A stretch of DNA of 64,000 nucleotides from Macrostomum hystrix (Eukaryota > Animalia > Platyhelminthes): positions 1,612,001 through 1,676,000 of the forward strand of contig CATNEN010000038.1 in NCBI GenBank assembly GCA_950097015.1. Reading direction: 5' to 3'. Under the pieces are notes generated by a model. It saw nothing but the letters and a program-made list of their open reading frames with translations. It had not been told where the DNA came from and made no database searches. Shown piece by piece: positions 25,432 through 53,984 of this stretch. Both the position numbers and the translations under genes were made by a program. Numbering within the stretch: position 1 is the first letter of the stretch; every line of letters begins with the position of its first letter.

Positions 25432-28173
25432 CCGGGGCGTAGCCAGGGGGGGGCCGCGGCCTCCCTAATCGGCAGACAAATCTATGAGGCGCCCCCTGGT
25501 AGTGGCGCCTCCCAGTAGTGGCGCCTCCCAGTAGTGGCGCCTCCTAGTAGTGGCGCCTCCCAGTAGTGGCGCCTCCCAGTAGTGGCGCCTCCCAGTAGTG
25601 GCGCCTCCCAGTAGTGGCGCCTCCCAGTAGTGGCGCCTCCCAGTAGTGGCGCCTCCCAGTTGTGGCGCCTCCCAGTAGTGGCGCCTCCCAGTAGTGGCGC
25701 CTCCCAGTTGTGGCGCCTCCCAGTAGTGGCGCCTCCCAGTAGTGGCGCCTCCCAGTAGTGGCGCCTCCTAGTAGTGGCGCCTCCCAGTAGTGGCGCCTCC
25801 CAGTAGTGGCGCCTCCCAGTAGTGGCGCCTCCCAGTAGTGGCGCCTCCCAGTTGTGGCGCCTCCCAGTAGTGGCGCCTCCTGGTAGTGGCGCCTCCCAGT
25901 AGTGGCGCCTCCCAGTAGTGGCGCCTCCTTGTAGTGGCGCCTCCCAGTAGTGGCGCCCCCTGGTAGTGGCGCCTCCCAGTAGTGGCGCCCCCTGGTAGTG
26001 GCGCCCCCTGGTAGTGGCGCCTCCCAGTAGTGGCGCCTCCCAGTAGTGGCGCCTCCCAGTAGTGGCGCCTCCCAGTAGTGGCGCCTCCCAGTTGTGGCGC
26101 CTCCCAGTAGTGGCGCCTCCCAGTAGTGGCGCCTCCCAGTTGTGGCGCCTCCCAGTAGTGGCGCCTCCCAGTAGTGGCGCCTCCCAGTAGTGGCGCCTCC
26201 CAGTTGTGGCGCCTCCCAGTAGTGGCGCCTCCTGGTAGTGGCGCCTCCCAGTAGTGGCGCCTCCCAGTAGTGGCGCCTCCTTGTAGTGGCGCCTCCCAGT
26301 AGTGGCGCCTCCCAGTAGTGGCGCCTCCCAGTTGTGGCGCCTCCCAGTAGTGGCGCCTCCCAGTAGTGGCGCCTCCCAGTAGTGGCGCCTCCCAGTTGTG
26401 GCGCCTCCCAGTAGTGGCGCCTCCTGGTAGTGGCGCCTCCCAGTAGTGGCGCCTCCCAGTAGTGGCGCCTCCTTGTAGTGGCGCCTCCCAGTAGTGGCGC
26501 CCCCTGGTAGTGGCGCCTCCCAGTAGTGGCGCCCCCTGGTAGTGGCGCCCCCTGGTAGTGGCGCCTCCCAGTAGTGGCGCCTCCCAGTAGTGGCGCCTCC
26601 CAGTAGTGGCGCCTCCCAGTAGTGGCGCCTCCCAGTAGTGGCGCCTCCCAGTTGTGGCGCCTCCCAGTAGTGGCGCCTCCCAGTAGTGGCGCCTCCCAGT
26701 TGTGGCGCCTCCCAGTAGTGGCGCCTCCCAGTAGTGGCGCCTCCCAGTAGTGGCGCCTCCCAGTTGTGGCGCCTCCCAGTAGTGGCGCCTCCTGGTAGTG
26801 GCGCCTCCCAGTAGTGGCGCCTCCCAGTAGTGGCGCCTCCTTGTAGTGGCGCCTCCCAGTAGTGGCGCCCCCTGGTAGTGGCGCCTCCCAGTAGTGGCGC
26901 CCCCTGGTAGTGGCGCCCCCTGGTAGTGGCGCCTCCCAGTAGTGGCGCCTCCCAGTAGTGGCGCCTCCCAGTAGTGGCGCCTCCCAGTAGTGGCGCCTCC
27001 CAGTTGTGGCGCCTCCCAGTAGTGGCGCCTCCTGGTAGTGGCGCCTCCCAGTAGTGGCGCCTCCCAGTAGTGGCGCCTCCTTGTAGTGGCGCCTCCCAGT
27101 AGTGGCGCCCCCTGGTAGTGGCGCCCCCTGGTAGTGGCGCCTCCCAGTAGTGGCGCCCCCTGGTAGTGGCGCCTCCCAGTAGTGGCGCCCCCTGGTAGTG
27201 GCGCCCCCTGGTAGTGGCGCCTCCCAGTAGTGGCGCCCCCTGGTAGTGGCGCCCCCTGGTAGTGGCGCCTCCCAGTAGTGGCGCCCCCTGGTAGTGGCGC
27301 CCCCTGGTAGTGGCGCCTCCCAGTAGTGGCGCCTCCCAGTAGTGGCGCCTCCCAGTAGTGGCGCCTCCCAGTAGTGGCGCCTCCCAGTAGTGGCGCCTCC
27401 CAGTAGTGGCGCCTCCTTGTAGTGGCGCCTCCCAGTAGTGGCGCCCCCTGGTAGTGGCGCCCCTGGTAGTGGCGCCTCCTAGTAGTGGCGCCTCTTAGTA
27501 GTTGCGCCTCCCAGTAGTGGCGCCCCCTGGTAGTGGCGCCCCTGGTAGTGGCGCCTCCCAGTAGTGGCGCCTCCTAGTAGTGGCGCCTCCCAGTAGTGGC
27601 GCCTCCCAGTAGTGGCGCCTCCCAGTAGTGGCGCCTCCCAGTAGTGGCGCCTCCCAGTAGTGGCGCCTCCCAGTAGTGGCGCCTCCCAGTAGTGGCGCCT
27701 CCTTGTAGTGGCGCCTCCCAGTAGTGGCGCCCCCTGGTAGTGGCGCCCCTGGTAGTGGCGCCTCCCAGTAGTGGCGCCTCCTAGTAGTGGCGCCTCCTAG
27801 TAGTGGCGCCTCCCAGTAGTGGCGCCCCCTGGTAGTGGCGCCCCTGGTAGTGGCGCCTCCCAGTAGTGGCGCCTCCCAGTAGTGGCGCCTCCCAGTAGTG
27901 GCGCCTCCCAGTAGTGGCGCCTCCTTGTAGTGGCGCCTCCCAGTAGTGGCGCCCCCTGGTAGTGGCGCCCCTGGTAGTGGCGCCTCCCAGTAGTGGCGCC
28001 TCCTAGTAGTGGCGCCTCCTAGTAGTGGCGCCTCCCAGTAGTGGCGCCCCCTGGTAGTGGCGCCCCTGGTAGTGGCGCCTCCCAGTAGTGGCGCCTCCTA
28101 GTAGTGGCGCCTCCTAGTAGTGGCGCCTCCCAGTAGTGGCGCCCCCTAGACAAAAATCCTGATTACGCCACTG
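25432..28173. mobile_element. hAT-like MITE inflated by an internal 16-bp satellite (AGTGGCGCCTCCCAGT, ~165 copies, ~25490-28148)
   Basis: Imperfect TIRs CCGGGGCGTAGCCAGG (25432) / CCTGATTACGCCACTG (to 28173). Flanking 8-mers GCATAGAG / GCACAGTG match at 6 of 8 positions, consistent with a decayed 8-bp TSD. Confidence 0.75.
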
Positions 28174-28747: not shown

Positions 28748-31700
28748 TCAGACATAGGCCGCCGAGCGTAGATACTGAAAAAACATCAACATTTCTCACT
28801 GCCAGTATCATGGTAGCTGTGACGTTAATCAAATAATAGTCATAGATTATGTACAGGGGCTGTGACCAAGGACGCATCGTTTGGCGACTGCAATTCTGCC
28901 TTTTCCACTGACCCCTGAACACACATTCGCACAGGGGTATGTACATTGGCTCTGACTTTCTCTTCGTGAGGAAGTGTGAGTTTCAGTGTCGGTTGACACT
29001 GGGCGTATCAATTGTATCACAAGCTGCGAAGTTTTCTCTCCGCGGCGGCGCCACATTTCAACGTGCCCTCGCCGCGGATTCCAGCATGGTGCGATGGGGA
29101 CTCTGATGCGATTGCCAGACCCTTTTCCGCTTCGCAACTCAAACCCAGACGTCAATCAAGAGAACCATAGAATCTACAGAAAACCCCAAGAACCGTTGGA
29201 ATCAGATGCCACTTTAGAACGTAAAGTTTCGTCACTCACCTCGTCCTTGGAGAACGCAGCGTAAACTCCACCGTCCGCCTTCCCCTTGGCCCTGAAGGTC
29301 TCGAAGATCGTCTTGAGCCGCACGCAGCAGACAATGAAGTCGTTGAACTCTACAGTGCCCGCTCTGTCTGAGTAGCGCATCACCAGGCATTTGTAGATGC
29401 GGTTGCTCACTCGGAAGCCTGCAAGGTAGTTTGCAGGAATACTGCAGTAATGCGAGTATCCGTCACAAAGATCTTATTGCTTCACTCACCGACTGTGCTC
29501 AGCGCCTGCCTCAACTCGTAGCTGCTGAAACTTCCCAACTTTTCCCCGTCAAACCTCTTGAAGGCTGTCTTCCATATTCGCAAGCTGCTCCACAGCGCCT
29601 TGAACTCGTCGAAGCCCAGCCGGCCTGATTGGTCGGTGTCCATCATGGCCACCATGGAGCGACTCGTCTCCAGAGAGAAGCCCGCGAAATTGAACTCTGC
29701 GGGTTTCAGATTTGGTACACCCTCCGTCTATACTCTCTCCACTGCTGTTTTCTACTCAATGAGCTAGCCGTACCCCTCATGAAAGCCATGTTGAGAATGT
29801 CTCGCAGCTCGTAGGCGTCCACTTCCTGATCGGATCCGGAGACTTTGTCGAAGGCGTGCCGCAGTGCTAGCTCCTGACCCTGCTCGGTTGCTGACGATTC
29901 CATCACCGGCTTCTGCGGGTCAGTGAAGATTCAGATTCTTGAACGCGATTATTCCTTTCTGATACCGGAGTCCAACGATCATAAATATTTGAAGTAAAAA
30001 AAATTTACCGGCAGATCCACCATAGCAGTCACTTCGTCTAACTCCTCGCAACTGACTGGCCCTTCCGCGTATACTCGCAACAGGAATTCCGTCTCGCCGT
30101 CCGGATGAAAAGTAGTTGGCACGATAACGTAATCCCCTGGAGCTAGCTCGTGCCGACAACATACCTGGCGACGCTTGACATAGCCTGCATGATCCACGTT
30201 CTCGTTGTTCCTGCGATTGGTTTAGTAAGATCCCAGAGTGTCACTACTTCTTCATTTTCCTCTCCCTCGGTGTGTCTGTTTAAGTTGAAGCACGCTGTCC
30301 TACTGCGCTTTCTTTTCTCCCCCCCTGTACGTGTAACTTCTTAGCTTATCTTCACTTATCTCTTCTCTCCCTCATCTCTGATTGGCTCACTATTCGTATA
30401 TCTTTCCTCACCCACTCCTTATTATCTCATACCCTCTGGCCAATCCTTACACCTCTTACACTCTAACCCCCTCCTTATCTGGTGTTACTTAAATATATGG
30501 ACTCTCGGCACTAAGGTCGCTCGCGCTCTTTCTACATGCTCAAAGCCGTAAAGACGGTCACTTACTGCGAAGACTCAAATAAGTGCACGATTTCTTTGGA
30601 AAGAAATTGCACAGTGTGATACACAATCCACTTTCATTCCTGATCCCATAGAAGCCACACTCCTACACTCATTCCTGATGCCATAGAAGCCACACTCCTG
30701 CACTCATTCCTGATGCTATAGAAGCCACACTCCTGCACTCATTCCTGATGCCATAGAAGCCACACTCCTGCACTCATTCCTGATGCCATAGAAGCCACAC
30801 TCCTGCACTCATTCCTGATGCCATAGAAGCCACACTCCTGCACTCATTCCTGATGCCATAGAAGCCACACTCCTGCACTCATTCCTGATCCCATAGAAGC
30901 CACACTCCTGCACTCATTCCTGATGCCATAGAAGCCACACTCCTGCACTCATTCCTGATGCCATAGAAGCCACACTCCTGCACTTATTCCTGATGCCATA
31001 GAAGCCACACTCCTACACTCATTCCTGATCCCATAGAAGCCACACTCCTGCACTCATTCCTGATGCCATAGAAGCCACACTCCTGCACTCATTCCTGATG
31101 CCATAGAAGCCACACTCCTGCACTCATTCCTGATGCCATAGAAGCCACACTCCTACACTCATTCCTGATCCCATAGAAGCCACACTCCTGCACTCATTCC
31201 TGATCCCATAGAAGCCACACTCCTGCACTCATTCCTGATCCCATAGAAGCCAGTAGTATGCAAGAGGGGGCTTCTAGGACAAAAATAATCGCAGCCTCCA
31301 TTATCCACAAACCATTACTTTTATTATTCCCGAAGAGATCAGGAAAAAAAGGGTCCCCGCCTCTCTCTAAAAAACTCCGTCTCCGTATTCTAAATTCTCT
31401 ACTTTTAATATTCCACATCAGTTTGTAAGTTGAATATCTAGGACAAAAAATTATCGCAGCCTCCTTAATAAATAAACCATTACCTTTCCTGAAGGAACAA
31501 GGTTCCCCGCCAAAAAAAAAATACTTTCCAGTTTGTGAGTTGCACATCTTGGACAAAACAAATTATCGCAGCCACTCCCTAAGAGATCATGCACAAAATA
31601 GCGAAGCTGCAAAAAGCGTGCCAAGACAATCAAATTAGCACTAAAATCCCAATCAAGACCCCAAACCTTGGGTGCTCATCCTCCGAAAAAAAATTAAATT

Positions 31701-34700
31701 CTTATTAAAAATGCTCCCAATCGTCTCTCCAGGATCTTATTACAAAAGGCATGAGCCTAATTACAAGAGTAAGTACCAATGCAAACAAGAATGCAGCGAG
31801 TACATGAAGAAATATTGTCCCAACGTCGATATCAATGTCCCTAATATTAATCAAGCTCTCCAAAGTCACTGGTTTCATAAGTATGGAGTAATTATAAAGG
31901 ACTATGACAGCTACTATAACTTTGCAGAAATCATTAAGCAGCTATAGACTTTCGTTACAATAGGTTTAAGACTTCTAGACTGCATTAAAATCGATATTTT
32001 TACGTACAAGCGAATGATATTTTGCTGTGTGGCGGGTGGTGTTGAGCGGATTGGGTACGACAGCTGGTTCGGGAATATTCTAGAACGCCCCGTCACGTGA
32101 AGTGAACGTGTATAAATATGCACGCATATCGCTAGACACTGCATGGTATCATAGTGGCTCAAATCCCAGCTTTTTTCAGTGCGCTTCCTAGTCCAAAACC
32201 TAAAAACATGACGCAGAAAACTGGTATCTCTGACGAACTCGCGTGCAATTTATCTTTGGTACCAACGCTCGTAGAATCGCCGATGCAGATCTCGACGCAA
32301 GAAGAAGACCAGCTTTTAGCGCCGACGCAATCACAGTTGATTAGGACCGACACCGTATCCATCACAAGTACACTGAATGGAATGTTTGCCGATCTTCCAT
32401 CTGATCGACAAACAAAGTGGTCGGGTAAGAAAACAGCTGCGCTTTCTGAACTTAAAAAACTGGAGGCGACACTTGAAGAAGACGATGACGAGGAAGATTT
32501 CACCGAAGAAGAAAAACTAAAACAGAAAGAAGAGAAGACAAAGGAAAGGCTGAATCAGCTCAAAACCACACTAAAGGATAATGTCATCAAAGGGCCGCAA
32601 TGTGTATCACATGGCTTCAAAGTGTTCTCATTTGAGAGAAGAAATTCGCTTAAGATCGCCATAGAGCACCTGTCAAACATCAACCGCGACATCGAGCACA
32701 ATCGCCGGAACATTATATACCTGGCTGTTGCAGCCGGGCAAATACTTAAAACAGTGCAGCAGAAGCTGACAAACCGGAAGAAAGGATTTGCGAGCTTTCT
32801 GGACGAAAATCAAAAGAAGATGGGTATCAAGAAGTCAACAGCATATTTCTATATGAAGCTGGCAATGATCGCCGTAGACTTTCCGACGATTCAACAGTTG
32901 TCTCTACCATTGCGAAAACTGCAAGCGATCTTGCCTCGTTTGAGGGAAGTCTGCCGCGCCGATGAAGATTTTTGGAAGAATCTTCAGTAAGATTGATACT
33001 CCTTCAGCTGAAATCGACAGCGCTTCGGTGACGCACAGACTGTATTTCTCAACCATTTCTCCTTCTATGTTGCGAATGCTTTGGTTTGCATGGGTGCTTG
33101 CGCTTTTTCATTTTCTGCATATGTCATTAATTGCATGCTGACGTCATAAAATACATAGCTATTGAGGTCGCTTTTCGCTGCGCGCCTCCTGTGTCTTCTT
33201 GTGTGTTCGCTTTGTGTTCGGCTGGTCACTAAAGTACATTTGAAGGTCAAAGCTGTCCAACGCGTTGGAAAATCTGCCACTGCTAAGCTTTCTCAACTCC
33301 CAACTCTTTCAACAGTCTTCCCATTTCTCTATTTGGTGCCTGCAATACAAAACCAAACCTATCTCTACCCCCACACTCCACACCCGCCTTCCCACACACG
33401 CACCCCTCTTCCCACAAACAGCCACCAATCCCCAACCCCAACTTTGTCTTACCAAAAATAACAGCTTTAACTAGCTTCCGAGCGATCGATTCCCTCCACC
33501 CGCTTGAAGCCCCCATATTGTCTAGCATTCTGAGCATTTCTTTGTCCCAGCGAGTCTTCTCCTCTGGAAAATCCCTATACTTAATATCATGCCACATACA
33601 GACAGAGTCTAGCTCGTTCACAGGCTCATGCCCAGGATTTGGATTATTGTTTTTATCTAGCTGTATTTCAAGCGGATTCAAAGGCCCGCAATATTTGTAG
33701 CCGGGAATTGTCCAGCCTTTGTTTGGATGAGGAAGCTTTTCTACCAGTCCATGTGAGTCTAAGTTTCCACCAGAGCGTTGCATCATTTTTATAAAAAATT
33801 AAATAAAAAATAATGGCAGATCAGAAACTTCAAAAGCTCTACTACAGCGACAAAGGATTCTTTGTAGGAAAAAATGCAGTCACTAAACTCGCAGAACTAA
33901 GCAATGAATCAAAACAAACAGTTGAAAGATGGCTCTCTAAGCAAGCAGTTTACCAAGTCTATTTCCCACCTGTTAAATTTACAAGACCTCACTTTAACAT
34001 CTATAAACCTAATGAAGCGCACCAAGCAGATCTTCTGTTTCTCCCCAATGACTCAGGCTACAAGTATGCGCTCACTGTTATAGACATTGCCTCCAGATAT
34101 AAGGAAGCGAGACCGCTTAAGACTAAGAAGTCAGAAGCAGTTGCAGCTGCCCTCCAAGACATTTACAAAAACTCACCGCTCACATACCCCCAAACCTTTA
34201 TGACTGATCCTGGCAAAGAATTCATGGGAGCAGTCAAATCCCTTATGGAAAAGAACAATACGAAAATGCGCTATGGAAGAACTGAGCTCCATAGAGACCA
34301 GGCTTTTGTTGAAAGATTCAATCTAACTCTAGCAAAGAGACTTTTCACAAAGCAGACAGCTGAAGAGCTGAAACTAAAAAGTGGCCAATACTATACCAAG
34401 TGGACAGAAAGACTCCCCGCAGTAATAAGTCAACTGAACAATGAAGTATCTCGAATGACAAACCTGAAACCAAATACTGCCATCAAACAAGACACAGTTA
34501 AATCAAAACATTCAATCGCCCAATTCCCAATTCCAAAGCTCCCTGGTGTTTATTCCCCGGAAATTCTTACTAACTCTGAATTCGTTCGCTTCCTTTACTT
34601 ACCAGGAGAGCTGGAGAAGGACACAAAGAGAAGAGCAACAGACCCATACTTTAGTCTTGATGTACATAAGATAAACAGGCATTTCACATCAGCATCCGGT

Positions 34701-37700
34701 GATTACTATTTTCTATCCCAAGACTTTAATTCAAAAGCCCCCACACGATCATTCACAAGGGCTGAGCTTCTAGTGATTCCACATGACACAGAAATAAATT
34801 AAATTTTTTTTTAAATAAAATGATTGAAACCAGAACCGTGAATAAAATCAGCAGAATTATCGACTCTAAGAAGCCAGGCGTTGTATCAATTAAAGGTGTC
34901 AAAGTCAAAGTAGATCCAATCCAGCATCTGATCCATTGTAACAATCAAACGCACAATATCACTGATGAGAAGACAGGTGGGATTCTTCCTTTGCTAACTC
35001 TTATCCCCATCATCGCAGGTGCTCTTGGTGCTGCAGGAGGTGTAGCCGGCGGAGTTGCATCAGCTGTGAAGGCTGGCAATGACAGAGCACATCAACAAGA
35101 GATGGAGAAAATCGCTAGAGAAAAAGGAGTCAGAATCGGGGGTAGTTGTGAATCTGATGAATCAGCTGATGAATCAGTCAGCAAATCAGAAATCGTTAAA
35201 GCCATCATGACACTGCATAAAGCAGGATTTACAATACTCCGGATGTGAAAACAGAACAGAACAGAATCTGCTCTCATAACTATATTTAGCACTGTTGGTA
35301 GTAGTATGCCATACTTTACACTTAACTTGAGGGTGACCACCCTAAATTTTTTTTATAAAATTTTCATTAAAAATGCCTAAAGCAATTCCAGAAAAAAAAT
35401 TTGTCGAATCTTTCTTTCAAAATTATTGTCCTCAAGCCTCTTCTTTTCAGCAGAAAAGTAAAGTTTTGCAAGAGCTTTGCAGGCAGAAATTCAATACAGA
35501 TCCAGGCCACCTCGGGAGCTATGCAATACAGCAAGAAATTATTAATCAGCTTCTGCATTCAGAGCAGTACACACCAGTGAAGAAGCCGGCGACTGAACAC
35601 CAACAAAAGAGCCGCAGCTTAGTCAATAAGTATGAGACACTCACAGGTCAAAATGTGTCGAAATACCCACAGAATAAGCAAGAGCAAGAAGATCTAGAAC
35701 GCACAATCCACCAGGTTGAAGCAGAGCTACAAGCAGAAACTGAAGACCTTAAATTTGCACAGAGAAAATTCACAGAGTATTATATTGAATACACAATCCA
35801 GGAAGACACCACAAATTCCCAATCCGACATTTACGACTTCAAAGACAGAATTCAATCAGTAATTGATCACACACTGAAGTCACGTAAGACCTTCAAGCTT
35901 CAGTTATCATTCAAGATAGAATTTTACATGCCTGCAAAACCCACTGAGCGTCTTGAATACTACATGACTACTAAAGCTCTACCCTTTACTCCCACTGACA
36001 CACAGGATCCCTTTCTTCAAGAGATCAGTAAAAAGATTGACGCCTTTACTTCCAGAGGATCAGGTTGGGTTGTCAATGGCATTCAAAAAGCTACAGTAAT
36101 GATCATGAAATATGACCCTCTCAAAGCTTCATCATATATTGAGCTCCCGAAAAAGTTAGCGAGTAAAAAAGCTTGCATCAATGTGCAAAATGATGACCAA
36201 TGCTGTGCACTATGGGCCGTTCTGTCTGCAATATTGTATGAGAAAGATCGAGCCCACCCAGAGAGAACTTCTCATTATAAAATGTATTTTGACGCAAAAC
36301 TTTTAGAATGCCATGCTAAAGGAATTTCCTTCAATAGAGGCGGCTTGGCAATCGATCAAATCCCAAAGCTAGAGGAAGTATTTAACAATAAAATCAGAAT
36401 CACAGTCTTTGAATGGAATGAGAAGAGCGAAAAAGTACAATTAGTCAGAGCCAGTAAAAACACGCTAGATCCTGAAGGTAGGCGTCGCATAGATGTCGAT
36501 CTTCTAATCATAGGTGATTTGCGAGAAAATGCCCACTACGTTTGGATTAAAGATCTTTCCAGGCTCCTCCACAAGCAAATGAACAATCATCATGAATCGG
36601 TAGCAATCTGCCGTCTTTGTCTGAAGCATTATAGTGGACCCGATCGTGATGAAAAACTTAAAGAGCATGAACTGACCTGTGAAGATCATCCAACCAACTG
36701 CACACTTCCAACGGATAAGCATCTCAGATTTAAGAGTTATCACAAGATGGAGAAGCTCCCGTTTATAGTGTATGCCGACTTCGAATGTACTATAAACCCT
36801 GAAACCAATAAGCATGTCCCAAATTCTGTTGCGTATCTCTTTATTGGAAGAGACTCTTTTATTTGCTCAAACTATTTCTTAGGCGAACAGTGTGTTGAAC
36901 AATTCATTTACTCGATGATGGAATTACAGAAAAATGTTGCTGCCATTCAGCCTGTTCAAATAATTATGTCCGATCAAGATGAAATCGACTTCGGATCTGC
37001 AACTCATTGTCACATTTGCCGAAAGCTATTAACACCCTGCGACGTCAAAAACCACACAGTCAGAGACCACGATCACTTCACAGGAAAATTTAGAGGGGCA
37101 GCTCATAACACCTGTAATCTGAAACTTCAGAAAAACATCCGCGACCTTACCATTTTCTTCCATAACGGAAGGGGATATGATTATCACTTGTTGGTTGAGA
37201 AGCTGGGTATAATACCAGGCATTAAACTAGATTGCATCGCAGAGAACAAAGAAAAGTTTAAGTGCATTGATATTAAGCGAGATTCAGGCAAGATTAAGAT
37301 CAAAGATTCATTCCAGTTTCTGGCCGCAAGTCTCGATGCTTTGAGTAAAAATCTCACCGATGACCAATGTACTTATACCAAGATGCTGGCAGATTCCCCA
37401 GATTCATTTAAGCTTCTTAGAAAGAAAGGTGTCTACCCTTATGAATGTAATCACGTCTTTGCAGAACCACTACCACCCAAGGACAAGTTCTTTTCAAAGC
37501 TAACAAACTCTGGGATTTCTGATGAAGATTATGAGCATGCTCAGACTGTTTACAAACATTTTAACTGTCGAAACTTTCTTGATTATCACATGCTTTACCT
37601 TTGGACTGATGTCTTTCTTCTAGCTGATGTATTTGAAACCTTTAGAAAGACCTGGTACTCTGCTTATGGTCTCGACCCCGCTCATTATGTGTCTTTGCCT

Positions 37701-40700
37701 GCTACCAGTTGGGAATCATTGCTTAAAATGAAATGGGATCAAAATCCCAACTGGTACATCGAGCTGCTTACAGACATAGACATGTACAACTTTATAGATT
37801 CATCTAAGAGAGGTGGCATCTCAATTTGTGTCCATAGGCATGCAAAGGCAAACAATCCGTATCTAGAAGACTATGATAAAGAAAAGCCTTCAAACTACAT
37901 CCTTTATCTGGATGCCAACAACCTCTATGGTTGGGCTATGAGCCAAGATTTACCTGTTAGAGATTTTAGGTGGCTAGATACTTATAAACTCGACTTTTCA
38001 ATACCTGCGATCTATGAAGTTGATGTTGAAATCCCAAGGGAACTTCACGACGATTTCTCTGACTTTGCCCCCTTCCCTGAGAACATTAACTGTCCAAAGA
38101 TAATCCAGTACAATGATGGAAGCTGGCAGCTATCTGAAAAAGAAAAAGAGCGTGTGAAAAAGTTAACACAAAATCTCATGAACAAGACACGCTATAAAAT
38201 CCACTACAAACTGTTGCAGTATTTTATCTCCCTAGGCTGTAGGGTCACGAATGTTCACAGGGCTCTCGCATTCACAGAAGAAGCGTGGATGAAGCCATAC
38301 ATAGAAAAAAACACCCAGTTTAGAACTAAAGCAACAAACAGCTTTGACAAGGACCTGTTCAAGCTTGCAAACAACTCTGTCTATGGCAAGACCCTAGAAA
38401 ACGAACGCAACCGCACGAACCTGAAGCTCGTTACCTGTTATGAGCCTGGTACTATTCAGACAAGTTTATCAAAGCCCACTTTCAAAGAGCTTCATATCTT
38501 TAATGATTACTTGGGTGCCATACTGTTCTATAAGACTAAAGTTACCCTATGCAAGCCCATATTTACAGGTGTGACTGTACTCGATGAGTCGAAGCGTCTG
38601 ATGTATAAATTCTTCTATGACATGAAGCGGCAATATGGTGAGCAACTGAAACTTCTATATACTGACACAGACTCCCTAATTCTAAACATACAGACTGAGG
38701 ATGTCTATCAGGACATGTTGAATCAAAAACATCTGTATGACCTATCCGAATATCCAGAGTCCTTCAAGACTTTGAAAGGTGATCAAGTACGCGACACTGG
38801 AAATCAAAAAGTTGTAGGAAAAATGAAGGATGAAACGGCTGGCACCCTCATTACAGAGTTTATCGGTTTGAGGGCAAAGTCCTATTTTGTAAAAAGTTGT
38901 AAGTCTACCATTAAAAAATCAAAAGGAATCCCAAAACATGTTGTTAAAAACGATCTCCATGAAGCTTCATACAAGGACGCATTGATCAATAATAAAAACA
39001 CCACCCATGAATTTATGAAACTGCAGTCTAAGAACCACAACATTCACACAATTCAACAGAAGAAGATAGGCCTCTCAGGTGCTGATAACAAACGACATAT
39101 CTTTGATGACAACATTACCAGCCTACCATTTGGACACTATAGATTAAATAATTTGTAACAAAAAAGTTGTAACAAAAAAAATTTGTTAAAAAAATAATGA
39201 CAACCAATATTTTTTTAGAAGAGCTAGCTCAGCAATTAAAAATCCCAAACTTCAGAGGCGTCTTTATGAAGGATACACTGCCAGAATCCCCACTAGAAAA
39301 AGAATGTGGAATCATGAACTTTGACCCTGCAGAAAAGCCAGGTTCTCATTGGGTTTGTTGGGTAATTGATCCCAACCGTAAACACAAGTACTATTACTTT
39401 GATAGCTATGGTACGGCCGTGCCTGAAGTGCTGAGAAATTATATGACTCATATGAGACATAAAATGAGACATAAAATATACCGCTCAGATTTTATACTCC
39501 AGGGTATTAACAGTGATATTTGTGGCGAGCTATGTATGACTGTTTTGTATGCAATGACCCACACCCGAAAAAGTTACAAAGAAATCATTTTAGGGCTGAA
39601 AAAATAATTTTTTTAGGTCCCGTTAGGTCCTGTTAGGTCTTGTTCATTTTCGCTACTTTCGCGACATGCTGTTTGAACACATTCTCCAGATCATTTCTTA
39701 GCTGGCTCATTTCATCAATGGTATTTAGATTAAGCCTAACTCGTTGCTCATAGAGGTCTTGAATGTTTTTAAACTCATCCTCTGAAATGAACTTGTCTTC
39801 AATCGCCTTTGAGATGTACCCGATGATAGAGCTTTGTACTGATTTCTCATTTGTTTGCTTCGCATGTAGATGCTTTAGCTTTTGTCGTCTGTTCCGTGAT
39901 AGTGCTCCTGTAACTGCTGAAATCAGACCACATGTGGCACCAGCAGCTCCGAGTGGAATGGCGATTGGTACAGTGATTACAGGAAGTGTTGAAACAGCAG
40001 CTGCTGATCCCGATAGAACAGATACAGATCCAAGAAACATATTAAGGTAATCGAAGACCTTGCACTCTCTATTATAGCGCTTCAGTTTCTTGGTATTATG
40101 ATCAATTTGCCGTTCAATATCAGCTCGCATCTTTTGAATCTCCACCAATCTGAATTGCTGCGAGTTGCAAGTGAAAGTAACTGGGGTTGGGTAGATGGGT
40201 TGGTAAGGAGCACTAGGTTGGCTTGGAGGCGCACTAGGTTCATATAGAGAGTTAATTTTTTCAGACATTTTTTTGAACGAAAAAAATTATATATATTTTT
40301 TATGACCTTTCTCGCAAATCTGTTGCACGCCTTGCCGCCTCCCTTGATGCCTCTTCTGATGGTCCATCAGATACTCTTGCTTCTTCAATGTCAATGTCTG
40401 GCAGATTGTGCAGTCTCTCTAGTCGGCCGAGTCTTCTTTTCGTTTTCCCCCAGTCGTTGTATATCCTATTCAAATACTCAGTGTGTCTTGTTACGTTTAG
40501 CCCCATGGGTCTTAGTGTTTCCTTTGTTTCATTTGCTAGTCTCTGAAGAGCTGTTATATCTGACTCTGCTGCTGTGAGTCGCGAACTCAATCTATCATGC
40601 ACAGTGCTTGATCTTAGCATAAAGGCTTCTAAATTTCGAACTTTATTTGAATTTTCTGTTACTCTTTCTTCCACCAAGTTTGCTCGATTATTAACGGCAG

Positions 40701-43700
40701 TTCTCAGAGTGGCGATGTCTGATCTTAGAGTGGCGATGTCTGATCTCAGAGTGGGTATCGCTGCAACAAGAGTATCCCGATCATGAACAAACTGTACATA
40801 TAGTATGTCAATCTCTTCCTTCCGTTTTGCTACGCTCAACCGCAGGTCTTCCATGTTTATTTGTTGTTGGTGTGTTGCCCGCTCTAGGGCTTTCAAGCGA
40901 TCTTTATTGAGTTTGATTTCTGGAATTTTTTCGTCAACATTTATATAACGCCTGTCAAGGTAAGAAACTTGAGCACTAGTGAGTGTGCTTCCGCGATCCA
41001 ACGATTCACCTGCAAAATTAATAGACATTTTTTTAATAACAAAATTTAAATTACAGTTCTTTTTTCTTTGTTGATCATCACAAACTGGTAAGGTTGATTC
41101 CACTTTTCATAGCAAAGATTAACGAATTCCTCCTGTGAAATCTTTCTGTTGGAGTTTTTTGTTGGATTTACAAAATGGGCAGGCGCAATGACCTCATTGT
41201 AAAATCTTTTTAGCCTGTCCTGTGGAATTGTTGGAAACAGGAGGATCAGATTGCAGTTCCCACGAATTGTTTTGTTCGGGAGCTCGAACCAGTTCTGAGC
41301 AATGTAAATTACGTTACAATTGTTGTGCCGTCCTCTTGTAAAATAGTTTTCTATCTGCTTCTGTGGGCCTGTCATGCAATCATCAAAGACAATCAAATGT
41401 TTTCTCCCCTTTTCTAGCTCATCTGGTTGGGGTAGAAGTTTGGTCTTAGGATCAACCTGCGGATCTCCGTATGTGAACACTTTAATGTTCTGCCATTTTT
41501 CATTGTCTTTGAGGTACTTTGCATATTCGGCAGCTACAATTTCTGGGTTACTGGGAAGGCGCTTTTGGTTATTAAAACATTGAATAATGTTCTCTTTGGT
41601 CAGTTTGTTTTGAAGTCCAGAGATCAACATTTTATACTCATCTTGATACAGGGTGGGAGAGTAGATGTGCAGAGTGTCATAGTCGATAAAGCCAGGTCTA
41701 AGAAGCATGTTAAAGACTCTGAATGTTTTACCTGAACCTGACGAACCAACAACAATGCATCTGAAGTGACCCGGGATTGACTCATGATGAGAAAACTTAA
41801 TCTGATTACGTGTCCAGTGAGGATTGAAGTCGTTTGAAAAGTCCATTTTTCTATGATGAAAAATAAATTAAAAAAGTAAATCATTTATAAGATGTGTCTA
41901 GGACTTAGATGTGTCTAGGACTTAGATGTGTCTATTTGGGACTTAGATGTGTCTATTTGGGACTTAGATGTGTCTATTTGGGACTTAGATGTGTCTATTT
42001 GGGACTAGTCTTGTACCCTTACATGTCTTGTACCCTCGAAAAGCACCCTTTAGTCAAATTTGAAACCACTTCCTTTTTTAATGCTAGCTATGCTAGCTCT
42101 CATCTTCTCGTAGATTGCAGGGTCCACACTGTCTGGATTCGGGGCCAGCGGAGCCAGCGGAGCCAGCGGAGCCAGCGGAGCCAATGGTGGCTGAATATCT
42201 TGTGTTACAGTATCCTTTATCTTTTTAGCCGCAGTGACAACGCTTCCCACAGATTCAGCCACGTTCTTAATATTATCTTTGTTCTCACTAATGACTTTAA
42301 AGACCCGGGCACCCTGTGCAATTATATCAGCAAGACCATTCCCGGAGCGTTCTTTCCTCGGATAGTGGCCTGCCGGGAAAAGTCCGGATCCACGCTTAAT
42401 TAGATTAAGTTCCTCCTTGTCATAGTATTTGCTCACGTCTTTTTCGAAAATAATCGGCATTTTTATTAGGGAAGAAATTATTTTTTGTTAAAACGTGAAA
42501 GCAGAAGCTCTCTTGCCCGTTTGTCGATATACTTCTTTTCCATCATTTTGTCCAGGATGTTGACAAATTCTTTTCTATTTTCGTCTTTCATGCCAGTCTT
42601 TGCAGCTCCAAGAAGAACAGCCACTCGCTTATAGATGTCAGAAATTCCTTTTCCTTGAAATGATTGGTCAGTGGAGGACTGGTCGGTGGAGGACTGGGGT
42701 GAACTCTCAACTGCTCTTTGTTGTGGTGTGAACACTCTTGCTTTGATTTTATTCATTTGAGCTGGGGAGAAATTTTCTAGTTGTTGCCAGGCATCTGGGT
42801 GATCATTTTTATATTTAGCTACTTGAGTCGGATCTGCATTTTCAAGGGCACTGAGTACGTCTTCGGGTTTGAATGTTTGTTGCTGCTGTGGCGGTTGCTG
42901 CTGGGGCGGTTGCTGCTGGGGCGGTTGCTGCTGGGGCGGTTGCTGTTCTAGATATTTTATGGCATCTTCTTGATCTGGCAAACCAAACCATTGTTTAAAA
43001 TGCTTGTACTTTTTGAATCTAGTCAGGATGACACCGTTGTCATGCATTATTTTCAGAACTTGTGGGACCTTTAGTATTTCTATATCTCTAGCAAGAGCAA
43101 AACTCACTAGATCTCTATAGTTCTTTAGCTGCTTGTCCGAAATTTTCTCTTGGTTCTTAGTCATAAAATTCAGTAAGGTTTCTGTGTAAATTATTCTCTT
43201 AGTTTCTGAGCCTTTGACAACAGAAATATGGTTCTTATTTATGTCGATAAAATATTCCACTGGTTCATTATAAATGTTTTTTCTCCACATACTTATTCCA
43301 AATACATATTTCCCATCATGTTCTGCGCGTTCTACTGGTCCAAAAAAGTTATCTGTCACTTTTAGTTGTGACTGTTGTGGGACTTGGACTTGCGGATCTG
43401 CAGATTGTTGTATCTGCGGTGCTTCTGGAATTTTGTCCAAAGCCTTTTGCACCTGGGTTTCCTGTATGTCGTCAATAGTTTCTTTGACTTGATCAATATT
43501 TTTCTTAGCTTCTCCATACCCGGGTTTATGAAACTCTGTGGCTGCTTGGACAAACTCATTGTAGGATTGTTGCTCCTTATTGATTAGCCCGGTAACTCTC
43601 TTTTCTGCTTGTGCTAGCTTCTCCAATTCAGATATTTGGTGCGCATTTTTTCGCTTCATTTCTTATTTTATTTTTTTTTAGTTTAAAAAATGAACGACCC

Positions 43701-46700
43701 ACTGACACCAGTTTTCTACAAAATTAACAAGCCTATTTTGAGTGATGATAGCACAATCAAAGCGACTCAAGTAAGAGTTCCCAGTCAGGAAAATCAGAAT
43801 GAAACTAATCTTGGTCCTGGTCAAACACTGACATTCACCTACAATGGATGTTCGTCTCTGGTTAGTGTGCACAGTCTTAAGAGCGGTTTCCATATGACAT
43901 TTCAATTCAAGACAAAAGGAGGTGCGGATGCAGCTCATGCTAACGTTGAAAAGCATGATGCAGATGTGGCTCTGATTAGTAACTTTTGGGCGTACATGTT
44001 CAAGGAGTTTAGTGTATCGAATGGGAGCACAGAGTTGGAGCGAATCGCCAACTTTGGAATTGTCTATGACGCTCATTGTTTGATCGAGAATCCAGATTTT
44101 ATTCAGTTGGGGAGTGGTGCGGGTTTCATTGCAGATGAAAAAGAAGGAGATATCAATGACAGTGGCTATAAAAAGAGGAAGAAGAGATACAACTATGCGT
44201 TGCAAGGTGCTGATGATGCTGCTAAGAACCCGCTGTATCGGACTGTTGATGTATTCGTACCACTGAGATTCATGAGTGGATTCTGTAATACATTTAATCG
44301 ACTGACTAGTAACTTCAGCTACACCTTTAAGATGACTAGAGATGATCGCAGTAGAGTGTTGTGGACTGGGGCGGACCACACTAGGATGGAAGTGAAGCTA
44401 ACCGGAATCGAGCTGTATTTGGAAGTCATTGAGCCAAAGACCGCACTAAAAGCAGATTATCTCAAGGCAATAGAGAAGGACATTGATGTCGCCTACACGG
44501 CCTACATGTGTCGAGATGAGCGAAACGAAACCAGAACAAACATCTGCATTAAAGAGGGATCATGCAGCAATCCTAGGTATATTATTATTAACATGAGAAA
44601 CCCAAATAACATTATACGCTACATGCATGGAGATGTGCGGTCCATTCAGCATGAAATCAGTGATAATCTTTACCCCGCACTGCCACAAAATGGAAATTTC
44701 AGTCAGAACAAGATTAGCAAATTTTACAGCGAGTTGGTCGACTTGGCTGTGAAAGAGAACAATGGAATTGCTATCACTGCTCTTCAATATGGAACTCTTT
44801 ATCCAATGTTTGGTGCTGATGTGTCTGCCAGACAAATGCCTACTGATAACAGCCCTGTGAATATCGTGACTAACATTGAGAGGACTGCAGCAACTGCTGT
44901 TGACCTGTACATTATCTATGCGTTCGAGAGGAAGGTGAAGCTTAACATGATCAACAATTCATCCAGTAAAGTTTAAATATTTTTTTTTTCGGGGCTGAAA
45001 AATGTTAGCGATTGCTGAAAGACTAAATAATATTATTTCTCACTCTAAGGAGAGCATTCCTATTACAATAGCTGGGCGAATTAATGACTCAAACGGGATA
45101 TTTGTTGAAAAATTAGAGCAGGCGATTCGTCTGGATCCAGGTGCTAATTACCATGTATATCTTAACGACTTCACTGGTTGGTCAAACGTTCCCAATGTGA
45201 CAGCAGCAAATAATAAGTTTCATTACAAATGGAAAGGTGTAGCAGCAGAAGCTGTGGTATTCCCTGTGAGCACACAGGGCGTGGACACCTATAATTACTT
45301 TCTAGAAAACGTCTTTACTAAAAGAGGCCATTTTGAAACACCCAATGCGAGTAAGCCAGAGAAGAAACTGTTCCCTGTCAAACTATCCTATGATCTCACT
45401 GTAATGAGAGTGGTCATGCAAGTTCACAAAGAAGCGGAGGTTGAATTTAGAGATGACACTTGGTATAAGGAATTGGGATTCGAGAAGAAAGTTTATAAGG
45501 CGGAATCCGGGGAAAGCGGTCTGTTCTTAGCACCCAATATCGCAGACATTGTAAAGGGTTTGAATATTCTAATCAGAAGTAATCTCAGTCTTGATTGGGT
45601 ATTTAAGGGAAAGCGAACGAATATTTTGTACAACATCTCAAACTCTGTTGCTGGAGGACAGATGCTGGTAGAGAAACCAAATCCAGTGAAAAGAGTTGTG
45701 CTAAGTAATAAGGAGATTCACGAGATTGTGCTGCAGTTTGAGACGGAAGATGGTGTTGGCGTTGATTTCAACGGTGAAGAGTTTGTATTGACGTTGATCA
45801 TTGAGAGAATGTGAAAAAAAAAACATTTTACAATTGCCTAATGATTTCTGCAAAGTTATAGTAGCTGTCATAGTCCTTGACGTAGGTTACTCCATACTTA
45901 TGAAACCAGTGACTTTGGAGAGCTTGATTAATATTAGGGACATTGATATCGACGTTGGGACAATATTTCTTCATGTACTCGCTGCATTCTTGTTTGCATT
46001 GGTACTTACTCTTGTAATTAGGCTCATGCCTTTTGTAATAAGATCCTGGAGAGACGATTGGGAGCATTTTTAATAAGAATTTAATTTTTTTTCGGAGGAT
46101 GAGCACCCAAGGTTTGGGGTCTTGATTGGGATTTTAGTGCTAATTTGATTGTCTTGGCACGCTTTTTGCAGCTTCGCTATTTTGTGCATGATCTCTTAGG
46201 GAGTGGCTGCGATAATTTGTTTTGTCCAAGATGTGCAACTCACAAACTGGAAAGTATTTTTTTTTTGGCGGGGAACCTTGTTCCTTCAGGAAAGGTAATG
46301 GTTTATTTATTAAGGAGGCTGCGATAATTTTTGTCCTAGATATTCAACTTACAAACTGATGTGGAATATTAAAAGTAGAGAATTTAGAATACGGAGACGG
46401 AGTTTTTTAGAGAGAGGCGGGGACCCTTTTTTTCCTGATCTCTTCGGGAATAATAAAAGTAATGGTTTGTGGATAATGGAGGCTGCGATTATTTTTGTCC
46501 TAGAAGCCCCCTCTTGCATACTACTGAAGCCACACTCCTGCACTCATTACTGATGCCATAGAGGCCACACTCCTGCACTCATTCCTGATCCCATAGAAGC
46601 CACACTCCTACACTCATTCCTGATCTCATTCCATCCATCGAAAATCCATAAGTTTACCAAAAGAATTTGGTGTTCAGAGCCCTGTTGCTGTTTGGCTTCT

Positions 46701-49700
46701 GGTAGATCTGGTAACCGATGCTCAGCAGTTCAAATCCTACTGCCCGACACCGCTTCGGGTTGATCTGCATCAGACCGACTATCACGGGAACTCTGTTGTC
46801 ACCGGAAGCGTTTTTCGAATCAATGACCTTGACGTGAAACTGTGGATTTGCCGCATAGCTGCTCATGTAGTTCGTGCAGCCGCCAGCGCTGACTCGCCTT
46901 CTCCAAGTGCCCCTGCGACTAGCCGTGTCCCAGCGGGCCGCATCGGACAGGTGGCACATATCCAACCTCTGCGTAATGATGCGAATGAAATCTGTGGCCG
47001 AGCTGGTGTTGAATGCTCACGATAACTCGTGCAGTTATGGTAATAACAGTATAATAATAATTGCACGAGGGCTGCGGGCAATGGAACATCATTTGGTGAC
47101 ACTAAACCCGTAGCCAGACAATTCTGCCCATTTCGCTGACTCCTGAGCACACACGCACATGGATACTGTACACAGGCATACGCTCACACAGGAGTGTACA
47201 TCTGCCCTGACTTTCTCATCGTCAGGCAGTGTAAATTTTACTGTGACTTGGAGGTTGGCCCTCAATGGTGTAAATTGCACGACAAACCCCCAAGCCTTCT
47301 CTCCGCGGCTGCGCCCCAAATAGATGTGGAGTCGCCGTGGAATCGAACTTACGAGAAGAACCTTGGTGCGAGAGGCAAACGCGTTAACCGCTCTGCCACC
47401 TACCCCCGGGCCCAGTTATGGTATGAACCGGGAGCAAATTATAATAAATTCAAAGTAAATATATGACCAGGCTGTAATGAAGAGTCCAGGACGACTGGCT
47501 AGGAATTCTTCACAATCTGATGAATTTCGTAAAGCTAAATATTCAGATTTTGTTATTGTTCTGTTACGCAGACTTTGGTGTACCCGTACGAGTCTTACCC
47601 TACGAGTAGCAAGTACCATAGGGCAAATCATGATTAGACTGACTCAGATTAATAAATTGTTTGCTATTGTGTGCTACCTTGTTCACTTGCGTAAAAAGAT
47701 ACGACCATAATGCATTCCAACTGCGAACAAGAGCATTCAGCTAGTATGTTAAGCAGCTTACGGTGAAGCTCGCGCAGAAGTCGGCGATGCTCATCCAGAA
47801 CTCATCTTCTCTGGCTGACGTCACACCTAGGCGAGCCCTCTCGCCGGCTGATAGAAGCTTCCAATCCCTGGATTTTCTGCCCCACGCGCCGGTCCACACG
47901 CCGCTGGTCCCCCCGTAAGGGTCGCGAAGGCGCACCAGATGTACAGACACTGTGTTCCCAGGTGAAGTCACTCTATCGATGACCTTACGGAGGGGAAACG
48001 AAATACGCGCAGGTTGATTGATTGGTACTAAACAACGTCGAACTATCTGGAAAAATAACTCACCTTAGCGCCACCTGTCACCAGCATCATATTAAGATCT
48101 TTCGCCACTTCAGTATTCATTTTTACCTGAGAAATGTTGTTGCGATGTTTTAGCTATAAAGGGTAGGCGCAGACTTCACTACTTTGAGTGTACTTCTGCC
48201 TTCGAATTTCTCTGGCAATCGATGTACTCACTCACTCGCAGTACAATGACTATATTGATTTTTCTTTGAGTTTATTAGCTGAGAAAACCTATTTAATCGT
48301 CTGTTTTCCTCATTCTCCCACTTAATTTGCCTGCTCAATTAGCAGTAAAACTGAACCCACAGCTTTCAAGTCCGTGACCAGGTATTCACGGCCAGTGTGC
48401 AGTCCGCAGCTCTTCGATTTCTCCGGTTTGTCTGCGCCCAGGATCGCGCAGCTCATCAAGCAGCGGCGCCGGTCTGCCTCCAGCATGGTGTAGAACAGGC
48501 TGGTCGGAGACTTTGACATTCTGGGCGCCAGGCTGACAGTGATGCCACCAGTGAAGTCCTCTATGGCTTCGCTGAAGAGGCCATTGTTAAGCGCATCATA
48601 GCTGCCCAATAGCTTGGCGTAGGCCTTCTCCAGCAGGGCCACCCAGAACTGGTCCTGCTCTGAGGAGTGCATGAGCACCAGCTGACTGCTGTCTGACAGC
48701 AATGGCAGCCTGTCGGCGAGGTGGTTCAACAGCGATTGATTGGGTCCTACTGCGCATTTATATAAATTCTGTTTCCTATGATCTATAGCCTACTGTCAGT
48801 GAGAACCAGTAGTATATAGTGTCAAGCGAATCCACTATAACAGTACGCGTAGAAAGTATAAGAAAAGTTCGGAAATTTGCTGAGATTTAATGTTGAAATT
48901 CGGATCTTCCAGAGCTGCAAGAAAGCTTAGAAACCCCGCCGCTTAAAACCTCACCTGTCGTCCACGATCACGTGGACCCACTCGCCGCACTGCCAGAAGC
49001 GAAAGTAGAATAACCCGCAATAGTTGCCGCTATTAAAATCCTGATCCCGCGGCACAACATTGTTGAAGAGGTCCGGGTACAGCGATAGAGAGGCCAGTAC
49101 TGAGAGAAGCCAGAAGTCGTCTAGGTGATGTCCAATGAAGGTGTTTCTAACTTTATCAATGATAAATAACTCTTTCCTATTGAAGCCTTTTTAGCATCGC
49201 TCTCAGCTATTTAGCAGCAATGTTTTAACACTGAATGACTAATTACTTGTGGATATTAAGTGGTTTAAGTATTAGCCGAGCTAGTTTATAACACAGAACT
49301 AGTAATTTATTGTTTAGTAGATATATGCTATTTTGTGCTTAAATATTTTGTTTGAGTTGCAACGTTTATTTGATTCTTGAACTTTTAGATGCTTAGCAGT
49401 GATAATAAGATTAATTTTACTCTCTCAGTTGGTTGTCATATAGATTGTTTGGAAGGCTTATAGTCTAGCATGTTTGGTTAATAGGTAATGTTGGTAGACT
49501 GCCCTCCAACAACTCTCAGAATCCCAATTTTTAACTATCAATATGCTTCACTCGTATGTAAACTGTTGGTTTCTATCGATATTTTTAGATTGGTTTGACC
49601 ATTGACAGGCCACTAAAGAGCTAATGCAAATAACAAAACCAACTATTTACTAAAATGAAAATATCTGCCATTGTTGTCAGCTATTCACTCGGCTCGTGCT

Positions 49701-53454: not shown

Positions 53455-53984
53455 ACACACAAGCTGGCTTTCGGCCCTGTCGCTCCACTGAGAGTCCCAA
53501 GTGCTCTGTCTCGTGCAATCTATCAGCGACGGATTTCAAGAGTCTTCAATGTGCCACACATTGCTGGCGCTCTTGGACTACTCCTCTGCTTTCGATATCG
53601 TCTAGCGAGATCGGCTCATGCGGAAACTGGTGCACCTGGGCGCCGCGTTCTTCTTCGCGTGGTGGATCCGTAGCTGAATCAATGCTTGTCATCTGCGATC
53701 CGCAACAACAATATGCTTTCTCGCGCCTGGCGGGTTCGTCAGGGTGTACCGCATGGCTGTGTCGTCTCGCCGCTCCTATGCATCATCTTCACTCACGACC
53801 TCACCTCCGTGATCCCGCCAGAGATATCCGTCAGCCTTTACGCCGATGACAGCGCCCTGCGGTCCAGCTCCACCTCCATCCAGGCGTTCGAGCAGTCCCT
53901 TTAACGCGCGGTGTCCGCAGCTGCTGGCCGTGGCTGCAGCCAAGAACAAGCTTAACCTGCACGTCTCAAAATGCAAGACCTGCC
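53455..53984 (+). pseudogene. Degenerate LINE reverse transcriptase fragment
   Basis: QAGFRPCRST, LLDYSSAFD, GVPHGCVVSPLL, YADD, LHVSKCK across frameshifts and stops. Confidence 0.85.

What the first reader, a model, noticed from the sequence alone, without database searches (positions are those of the whole stretch)
31252..46525. Intact, very recently integrated Polinton/adintovirus provirus inside a host gene intron
Seen: TIRs identical except one homopolymer base, a perfect 6-bp TSD, and ~14 uninterrupted ORFs covering replication (pPolB), integration (rve), morphogenesis (MCP, penton, ATPase, protease) and entry (PLA2). It expands calpain intron 6 to 16.4 kb without touching splice sites. 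Established: Polintons with this gene set are predicted to form virions. Inference: a potentially active endogenous virus, likely of an undescribed lineage in this host.
Basis: partly seen in the sequence, partly recalled or inferred. Interest (0 to 1): 0.85.

Follow-up and report, generated by a model that had tools for sequence, protein, structure and literature searches.

The report
Young intact Polinton provirus, multicopy family
A complete 15-kb virus-like element (a Polinton) sits in an intron of an animal gene, belongs to a family estimated at about twenty near-identical copies, and is predicted to make virus particles; it is a divergent new member of a known group.

Summary
31252-46525 is a 15,274-bp Polinton/Maverick with AGTAGT//ACTACT ends, 640-bp TIRs with no substitution and one homopolymer indel, and a true 6-bp target duplication inside a minisatellite. 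It has 15 open ORFs, with catalytic motifs intact in polymerase, integrase, protease, ATPase and PLA2, and a double-jelly-roll capsid gene. It lies in a 16,447-bp intron of a calpain-like gene.

New here, from public contigs: in a run whose host flank matches exactly, element contigs are about 20 times deeper than host DNA. Relatives occur at about 99% identity in a second organism label and 95-96% in a third (a run guessed to be RNA). This copy differs from its family mostly at silent capsid sites (9 of 12 listed), yet its two TIRs are identical. It therefore replicated under selection and inserted recently. Its polymerase is at most 48% and its capsid at most 78% identical to anything found. 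A 78/79-aa orphan gene is duplicated inside both TIRs.

Not shown: virions, expression in this host, insertion polymorphism, a junction-spanning contig, host identity. Verdict: new member of a known kind, and a good system for the open question of animal Polinton virions.

The parts
31246..31251 (.). left target-site duplication GAAGCC, inside a 35-bp minisatellite
   Evidence: repeat register shifted by 6
31252..31940 (+). left TIR: 640-bp identical core plus ~50-bp imperfect extension; AGTAGT end; imperfect 45-50-bp internal direct repeats
31711..31947 (+). 78-aa orphan ORF inside left TIR (Cys/His-containing, no family hit)
   Evidence: A-rich start context like the other genes
32208..32990 (+). 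260-aa ORF, no significant family; weak hints of a DNA-binding helical domain
   Evidence: best E 0.0045
33283..33786 (-). parvovirus-type phospholipase A2, YCGP and HD motifs present
   Evidence: PF08398 E 2e-14; motifs
33813..34802 (+). retroviral-type integrase with D-D-E motifs
   Evidence: PF00665 E 2e-9; motifs
34820..35248 (+). adenovirus pX/mu-like core protein
   Evidence: PF05829 E 1e-5, at cut-off
35373..39158 (+). protein-primed DNA polymerase B, 1261 aa: inferred terminal-protein and OTU-like domains, exonuclease with inserted endonuclease VII-like domain, polymerase
   Evidence: 6268 relatives, best 120 at 39-48% identity; Exo I-III and Pol A-C acidic residues shared with 118-120 of 118-120 aligned relatives, C278 104/104, H388 111/112, S230 99/103
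39197..39607 (+). adenovirus-type maturation protease
   Evidence: PF00770 E 1e-5; His/Asp/Cys motifs
39633..40268 (-). 211-aa two-TM SLATT-like protein
   Evidence: NF033634 E 5e-6, below cut-off; SLATT labels occur on adintovirus maps
40300..41028 (-). 242-aa coiled-coil protein (fibre-like by analogy only)
   Evidence: only non-specific coiled-coil hits
41046..41846 (-). A32/FtsK-type packaging ATPase
   Evidence: PF04665 E 6e-6; Walker A/B
42050..42460 (-). 136-aa ORF, no family
42478..43659 (-). 393-aa ORF with Gln/Pro repeats, no family
43690..44976 (+). double-jelly-roll major capsid protein, 428 aa
   Evidence: PF21738 E 7e-5; model (pLDDT 52) matches Sputnik, PBCV-1 and mavirus capsids at E 8e-11 to 1e-9
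45002..45814 (+). probable penton (minor capsid protein), 270 aa
   Evidence: low-confidence model (pLDDT 34); top 7 Foldseek rows are mavirus and Sputnik entries, E 0.003-0.01
45828..46067 (-). 79-aa second copy of the TIR orphan ORF
   Evidence: 2 of 2 listed differences in the third organism's run are synonymous
45835..46525 (-). right TIR ending ACTACT
46526..46531 (.). right target-site duplication GAAGCC
30211..46657 (-). host calpain-like gene intron that holds the element (16,447 bp)

Best explanation
This is an intact Polinton/Maverick provirus that inserted recently into an animal gene's intron as one copy of a multicopy family, and it likely still replicates and is predicted to package its genome into non-enveloped particles. 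Shown: the anatomy, the intact motifs, the 6-bp duplication, the related copies. Inferred from known families: the polymerase's N-terminal domain would prime synthesis at the AGTAGT ends and copy the genome by strand displacement. The displaced strand would pair through its TIRs, which makes both TIRs of one copy identical at each round. The integrase would insert the linear genome with a 6-bp staggered cut. Capsid, penton, pX core protein, ATPase and protease would build an icosahedral particle, and PLA2 would help it cross a membrane on entry. The TIR orphan gene is likely an early, double-dose regulatory gene; its function is a guess. Odds: identity and recent insertion about 0.95; family amplified by replication under selection on the capsid about 0.85; particles actually formed about 0.55.
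For: Anatomy and motifs. Recency: 0 substitutions in 639 TIR positions, 95% upper bound 0.47% pairwise. Multicopy: in run X1, two host-flank contigs with 0 differences over 485 and 1,872 bp have depth 84.6 and 80.2, while two capsid-gene contigs with 0 and 4 differences have depth 1802 and 1634, about 19-22 times more; TIR depth at one clean site is 3297, twice the body. Replication under selection: of 12 listed capsid-gene differences between this copy and X1's main contigs, 9 are synonymous (P 0.004 against a transitions-only expectation of 0.34); 12 of all 16 listed capsid rows are synonymous. Had those differences arisen after insertion, identical TIRs would have P 6e-6. TIR co-copying: at 8 of 8 listed variable TIR sites the left TIR carries the same letter as the right, including one site where all laid depth in X1, X2 and X5 shows the other letter. 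This also argues against polishing towards the family majority. Spread: about 99% identical contigs in X2 (another study) and X5 (another organism label), 95-96% in X15 (third label, RNA guessed). Same reasoning as for vertebrate Mavericks (PMC8097293).
Against: No listed contig spans the TIR/TSD junction, so the insertion is not independently confirmed, and X1 may be the window's own source. Contig depth is not a copy number and cannot tell integrated from free genomes. Only 40 of 389 difference rows were shown, the best supported. In the penton only 5 of 11 listed differences are synonymous (P 0.11-0.28). X15 is only guessed to be RNA and belongs to another organism label. The polymerase departs at 74 of 327 columns conserved in 90% of relatives (median relative 6.5): read here as lineage distance, but activity is untested. 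Purifying selection on the capsid can be a carry-over from an earlier viral phase. Particles had not been observed for Mavericks as of 2021 (abstract passage).
Confidence: 0.7

Rival explanations
1. It is a recently active intracellular DNA transposon. It copies itself with its polymerase and integrase, and the capsid module is intact only because too little time has passed or it is used inside the cell. No transmissible particle forms.
For: About 20 near-identical copies fit a burst within the genome; penton differences are not significantly silent; no virion evidence was testable.
Against: Capsid differences among near-contemporary copies are mostly silent; all five morphogenesis genes and PLA2 are open; close relatives occur under three organism labels.
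Confidence: 0.2
2. The depth excess reflects free linear viral genomes from an ongoing infection of the sequenced animals, with only one or a few integrated copies.
For: Main contigs are nearly uniform and far deeper than host DNA in X1; X2 and X5 assemble the element but hardly any host flank. Free-ended adintovirus assemblies are reported (PMC8502044).
Against: An excess appears in all three DNA or unlabelled runs laid, from two studies, which suits germline copies; this copy is integrated with a TSD; contigs cannot show ends.
Confidence: 0.07
3. The insertion at this site is an assembly chimera: a multicopy element was joined into a minisatellite by repeat-driven misassembly.
For: The site is a tandem repeat and no contig listed spans the junction.
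Against: The exact 6-bp duplication breaks the repeat register; both ends are complete; both TIRs share letters that differ from the family majority; the host exons continue the calpain domain without loss.
Confidence: 0.03

Closest known systems
Polintons/Mavericks of animals; family Eupolintoviridae (formerly Adintoviridae), order Amphintovirales, class Polintoviricetes (PMC12451622)
   Same: pPolB plus rve integrase, TIRs, 6-bp TSD, (AGT)2//(ACT)2 end motif, size within 12.7-24.6 kb, TIR within 46-1,447 bp (PMC8097293), DJR capsid, penton, ATPase, protease.
   Different: Gene order differs from the two convergent modules of vertebrate Mavericks; polymerase at most 48% identical to any hit and the longest terminal branch of 121 (1.03 against a median of 0.09); capsid in a small clade (23 clusters at E 1e-30 or better); orphan gene duplicated in the TIRs.
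Beta-class adintoviruses (Starrett et al. 2021, PMC8502044)
   Same: Polymerase has an OTU-like N-terminal dyad and no PF03175 match; 3 of 7 scanned relatives match PF03175 only at 46-71 bits. This fits that paper's 'divergent from pfam03175' definition.
   Different: It carries a PLA2 gene, which that paper calls characteristic of Alpha virion modules, and here pX is a separate ORF; no gasdermin-like hit. Named reference sequences could not be compared. A coral (Stylophora) hit also links PLA2, rve and this polymerase type (P0025), so the combination is not unique.
Coral polintoviruses (PMC11131425) and nematode Polintons (PMC10748475)
   Same: Multicopy families with complete capsid modules; capsid transcripts in corals; endonuclease inserts in some pPolBs. 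The nematode study lists 748 pPolB1 copies in 8 of 73 flatworm genomes.
   Different: No shared close sequence shown; named polymerase hits (Stylophora, Elysia, Mytilus, Pantherophis) are 39-42% identical.
Mavirus virophage
   Same: pPolB, rve integrase, DJR capsid and penton folds.
   Different: Mavirus has a superfamily 3 helicase and a vestigial exonuclease; this element shows no helicase hit and has full exonuclease motifs.

Membership tests
Polinton/Maverick (Eupolintoviridae) | protein-primed family B polymerase with exonuclease and polymerase motifs | tested here: met
Polinton/Maverick (Eupolintoviridae) | N-terminal terminal-protein and OTU-like domains on the polymerase | tested here: inconclusive
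   S230, C278 and H388 are conserved in 99/103, 104/104 and 111/112 relatives; domain names rest on papers and recalled motifs, with no fold test
Polinton/Maverick (Eupolintoviridae) | retroviral-type integrase | tested here: met
   PF00665 above cut-off; DDE motifs
Polinton/Maverick (Eupolintoviridae) | TIRs with (AGT)2//(ACT)2 or (AG)3//(CT)3 ends and a 6-bp TSD | tested here: met
   definition
Polinton/Maverick (Eupolintoviridae) | double-jelly-roll major capsid protein | tested here: met
Polinton/Maverick (Eupolintoviridae) | single-jelly-roll penton | tested here: inconclusive
   top fold matches are virophage entries but E is only 0.003-0.01 on a pLDDT-34 model
Polinton/Maverick (Eupolintoviridae) | packaging ATPase and adenovirus-type protease | tested here: met
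   PF04665 and PF00770 above cut-off
Polinton/Maverick (Eupolintoviridae) | forms virions | not testable with these tools
   needs particles from animals
Alpha adintovirus | pfam03175-type PolB | tested here: not met
   no PF03175 hit at E 0.1 or better
Alpha adintovirus | PLA2 fused to a C-terminal pX domain (PLA2X) | tested here: inconclusive
   PLA2 present; the pX hit lies in a separate ORF
Beta adintovirus | divergent OTU-PolB clustering with the Terrapene type | tested here: inconclusive
   fits by absence of PF03175; reference sequences not available; no phage tblastn hit
Beta adintovirus | GasderminX and cupiennin-like accessory genes | tested here: inconclusive
   no such Pfam hit; no profile-profile test against the paper's families
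Polinton-like viruses / virophages | helicase and tyrosine recombinase in place of, or beside, pPolB and rve | tested here: not met
   no significant helicase or recombinase hit among 15 ORFs; contrast stated

The most novel reading that the evidence does not exclude
This family is a currently circulating animal polintovirus: it forms virions, reinfects the germline of its host (about 20 fresh copies) and has crossed between at least three related host species, with a highly expressed orphan gene duplicated in its terminal repeats. It would be a tractable source of the first observed animal Polinton particles.
Probability: 0.25. Interest if true: 0.8.

Novelty: new member of a known kind. Interest (0 to 1): 0.45.

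Why it matters
Whether animal Polintons make virions is a long-standing open question. Most candidates are single or decayed copies. Here a complete copy belongs to a young family of roughly 20 copies, with silent-biased capsid variation and close relatives under three organism labels, one possibly transcribed. That makes purely observational tests (junction counting, RNA, protected DNA, microscopy of untreated animals) worth doing. It also adds a divergent polymerase and capsid lineage and a TIR-embedded orphan gene. The element type itself is not new.

Tried and rejected
No own genome is held, so copies could not be counted in the assembly. Reads were laid only on 43600-49250; the left junction, polymerase and integrase regions have no read evidence. 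All runs were contigs; no RNA holder was on record. 4 of 20 listed runs were laid; the shares of the other 16 are not used as evidence. My first guess, that runs with 0.39-0.42 of the words held only host flank (an empty allele), was wrong for the two laid: X2 and X5 hold the element and little flank. Missing flank cover in X2, X5 and X15 is not read as absence. Host identification failed: a search with the host GPCR gave no hit and exact look-ups of 8 window proteins found none. A resemblance to Macrostomum-type flatworms (minisatellite-filled introns) is recalled, not tested. No related loci in viral contigs or metagenome contigs, no PDB sequence hit for capsid or polymerase, no phage hit for the polymerase. 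The Atlas could not read the TIR ORF; a capsid homologue gave only unnamed and capsid clusters. Earlier scan notes: nothing. Horizontal transfer between host labels was considered: the element is 95-96% identical in X15 while calpain exons are only patchily covered at 80% likeness, but host divergence could not be measured, so it stays a lead. I suspected a frameshift in a calpain exon; one search shows the frame is open.
Full report
Observation. The element spans 31252-46525 (15,274 bp), starts AGTAGT, ends ACTACT and is flanked by GAAGCC on both sides. The target is a 35-bp minisatellite. The duplication is real: 17 unit starts to the left are spaced exactly 35 bp, the next unit starts at 31246, stops after 6 bases and starts again at 46526. 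The TIRs align over 640/639 bp with no substitution and one homopolymer indel, then continue through a short mismatch patch to 689/691 bp. Fifteen ATG ORFs cover 87% of the element; the 14 whose start context was printed all have an A-rich one.

Gene content. Pfam identifies PLA2, integrase, pX, protease and ATPase at or above cut-off, and the capsid and an endonuclease VII insert below cut-off. The 1261-aa polymerase has 6268 relatives among 7985 scored candidates; the best 120 are 39-48% identical. Its exonuclease and polymerase catalytic residues match nearly all of them, as do a Ser in a GSGW motif and a Cys/His pair that I read, from papers and recalled motifs, as the terminal-protein linking residue and the OTU-like dyad. 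A capsid model of modest confidence (pLDDT 52) matches Sputnik, PBCV-1 and mavirus capsids at E 8e-11 to 1e-9. The gene after it gives a poor model (pLDDT 34) whose top 7 matches are mavirus and Sputnik entries, E 0.003-0.01, so penton is probable, not proven. A 211-aa ORF is SLATT-like. Six ORFs remain unassigned, including a 78/79-aa gene present once in each TIR.

Host context. The element lies in a minus-strand calpain-like gene, 126 bp from the donor and about 1 kb from the acceptor of a 16,447-bp intron. The flanking exons match consecutive parts of the Calpain_III profile, 2-88 and 90-137. The catalytic Cys aligns to Phe and the His to Arg, so the host protein is likely a dead protease. 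Whether the enlarged intron is spliced is untested. The host was not identified.

Evidence from other data. No own genome is held. Twenty public runs share words with 40500-50400; 4 were laid, as contigs, on 43600-49250 only. In X1, host-flank contigs with 0 differences over 485 and 1,872 bp have depth 84.6 and 80.2; capsid-gene contigs with 0 and 4 differences have depth 1802 and 1634. That is about 19-22 times more, and one clean TIR site has 3297, twice the body. Depth is not a copy number and X1 may be the window's source, so 'about 20 full-length copies' is an estimate. X2 (same organism label, other study) and X5 (second label) hold the element at about 99% (8 differences in 664 and 8 in 694 bp). 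X15 (third label, RNA guessed) holds capsid and penton at 95-96% (32 in 737, 24 in 467, 23 in 463); its summed depth is 300-400 over the TIR gene and 5-26 over the non-coding TIR, a weak hint of transcription. No listed contig spans the junction.

Age and mode of change. The table shows 40 of 389 difference rows, the best supported. Sixteen fall in the capsid gene and 12 are synonymous; of the 12 where X1's main contigs differ from this copy, 9 are synonymous (P 0.004 against 0.34 expected for random transitions). In the penton only 5 of 11 are synonymous, which is not significant. The copy thus differs from its family by at least 0.9% in the capsid gene while its TIRs differ by 0 of 639 substitutions; if those differences were post-insertion decay, identical TIRs would have P 6e-6. 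At 8 of 8 listed variable TIR sites both TIRs of this copy carry the same letter, including a site where all depth in X1, X2 and X5 shows the other one. So the variation arose during replication, both TIRs were copied together, and insertion came last. Indels at the TIR mismatch patch also appear in X1, X2 and X5 (table 4), which suggests the patch is a family feature and not decay.

Mechanism. Inferred from Polinton, adenovirus and parvovirus biology: protein-primed strand-displacement replication from the AGTAGT ends with TIR pairing (model recalled from Kapitonov and Jurka 2006, not read); integrase insertion with a 6-bp stagger; an icosahedral particle from capsid, penton, pX, ATPase and protease; PLA2-aided entry. 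I put particle formation at about 0.55. Rivals are a transposon-only life (0.2), free viral genomes explaining the depth (0.07) and misassembly (0.03).

Comparison. All tested hallmarks of Polintons/Mavericks are met, apart from the inconclusive penton and N-terminal domains. Vertebrate surveys found 134 intact elements with the same end motif and TSD, and purifying selection on core genes. Corals hold hundreds to thousands, with capsid transcripts. Flatworms hold them too. The polymerase fails the Alpha (pfam03175) test and fits Beta by that definition, yet the element carries PLA2, described as an Alpha-module gene; a coral hit shows the same linkage, so this is not unique. The lineage is distant: longest terminal branch of 121 in an unrooted FastTree of the best hits only, and a capsid with 9 word-index hits at 43-78%, none carrying an organism name, and 23 clusters at E 1e-30 or better.

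Literature seen. PMC8502044: main text parts 1-3 of 6 and the first part of a cut supplement; its sequence files and host table were not visible and may bear on class and host. PMC8097293: passages and section 7. bioRxiv 2024.03.18.585575: part 2 of 5 and one passage. PMC10748475: passages, section 8, two supplement rows. PMC11131425, PMC12451622, PMC8532177 and bioRxiv 2025.04.19.649669: passages only; the last reports Polinton-order insertions in a flatworm, and its supplement, which I did not see, could include this family. Searches (guessed host group plus polinton or Maverick) listed no description of it. Searches (unspecific) listed no report of animal Polinton particles; subscription journals are largely not covered.

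Verdict. Real, intact and recent; a new, divergent member of a known kind. Interest 0.45, mainly because a young multicopy family makes the virion question testable.

Noticed in passing
window 29240-50252, minus strand: The host calpain has domains II, III and EF hands, but the catalytic Cys aligns to Phe and His to Arg; the Asn position reads Asp by eye. Likely a pseudo-protease.
   Followed up: partly
window about 47050-47410; inverted partial copies at 17594-17711, 11188-11234, 63947-64000: A very high-copy interspersed repeat (summed contig depth above 1 million in X1, also present in X2, X5, X15). No Rfam family reached threshold. SINE- or MITE-like.
   Followed up: partly
window 43690-45500, table 8: Low-depth contigs at about 82-87% identity in X1, X2 and X15 point to older sister subfamilies of this Polinton in the same genomes.
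   Followed up: no
window 45028-45537: A joint skipping 508 bp inside the penton gene is listed in X1 and X2, with only 22 letters on the short side: possibly a deleted variant, possibly chance.
   Followed up: no
window 31273-31573 and mirror in the right TIR: Imperfect 45-50-bp direct repeats inside the TIR (84-87% identity), candidate origin-binding sites.
   Followed up: no
window 25488-28143: A 2.6-kb GC-rich 16-bp satellite whose unit contains AGTAGT, the element's end motif; probably chance.
   Followed up: no
window 53674-55875: Retroelement remnants: an RT fragment (PF00078) and a gag-like ORF (PNMA, E 5e-5) followed by a protease/RT-like frame that had no Pfam hit at E 0.001.
   Followed up: partly
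window 1-16785: A single-exon rhodopsin-family GPCR at 15559-16782 (PF00001) with no hit in the homologue search, further GPCR-like frames near 1-4000, and flavin-monooxygenase-like exons on the minus strand at about 6400-12000 (by eye; the one exon scanned had no Pfam hit). Many introns hold minisatellites (38 TRF rows).
   Followed up: partly
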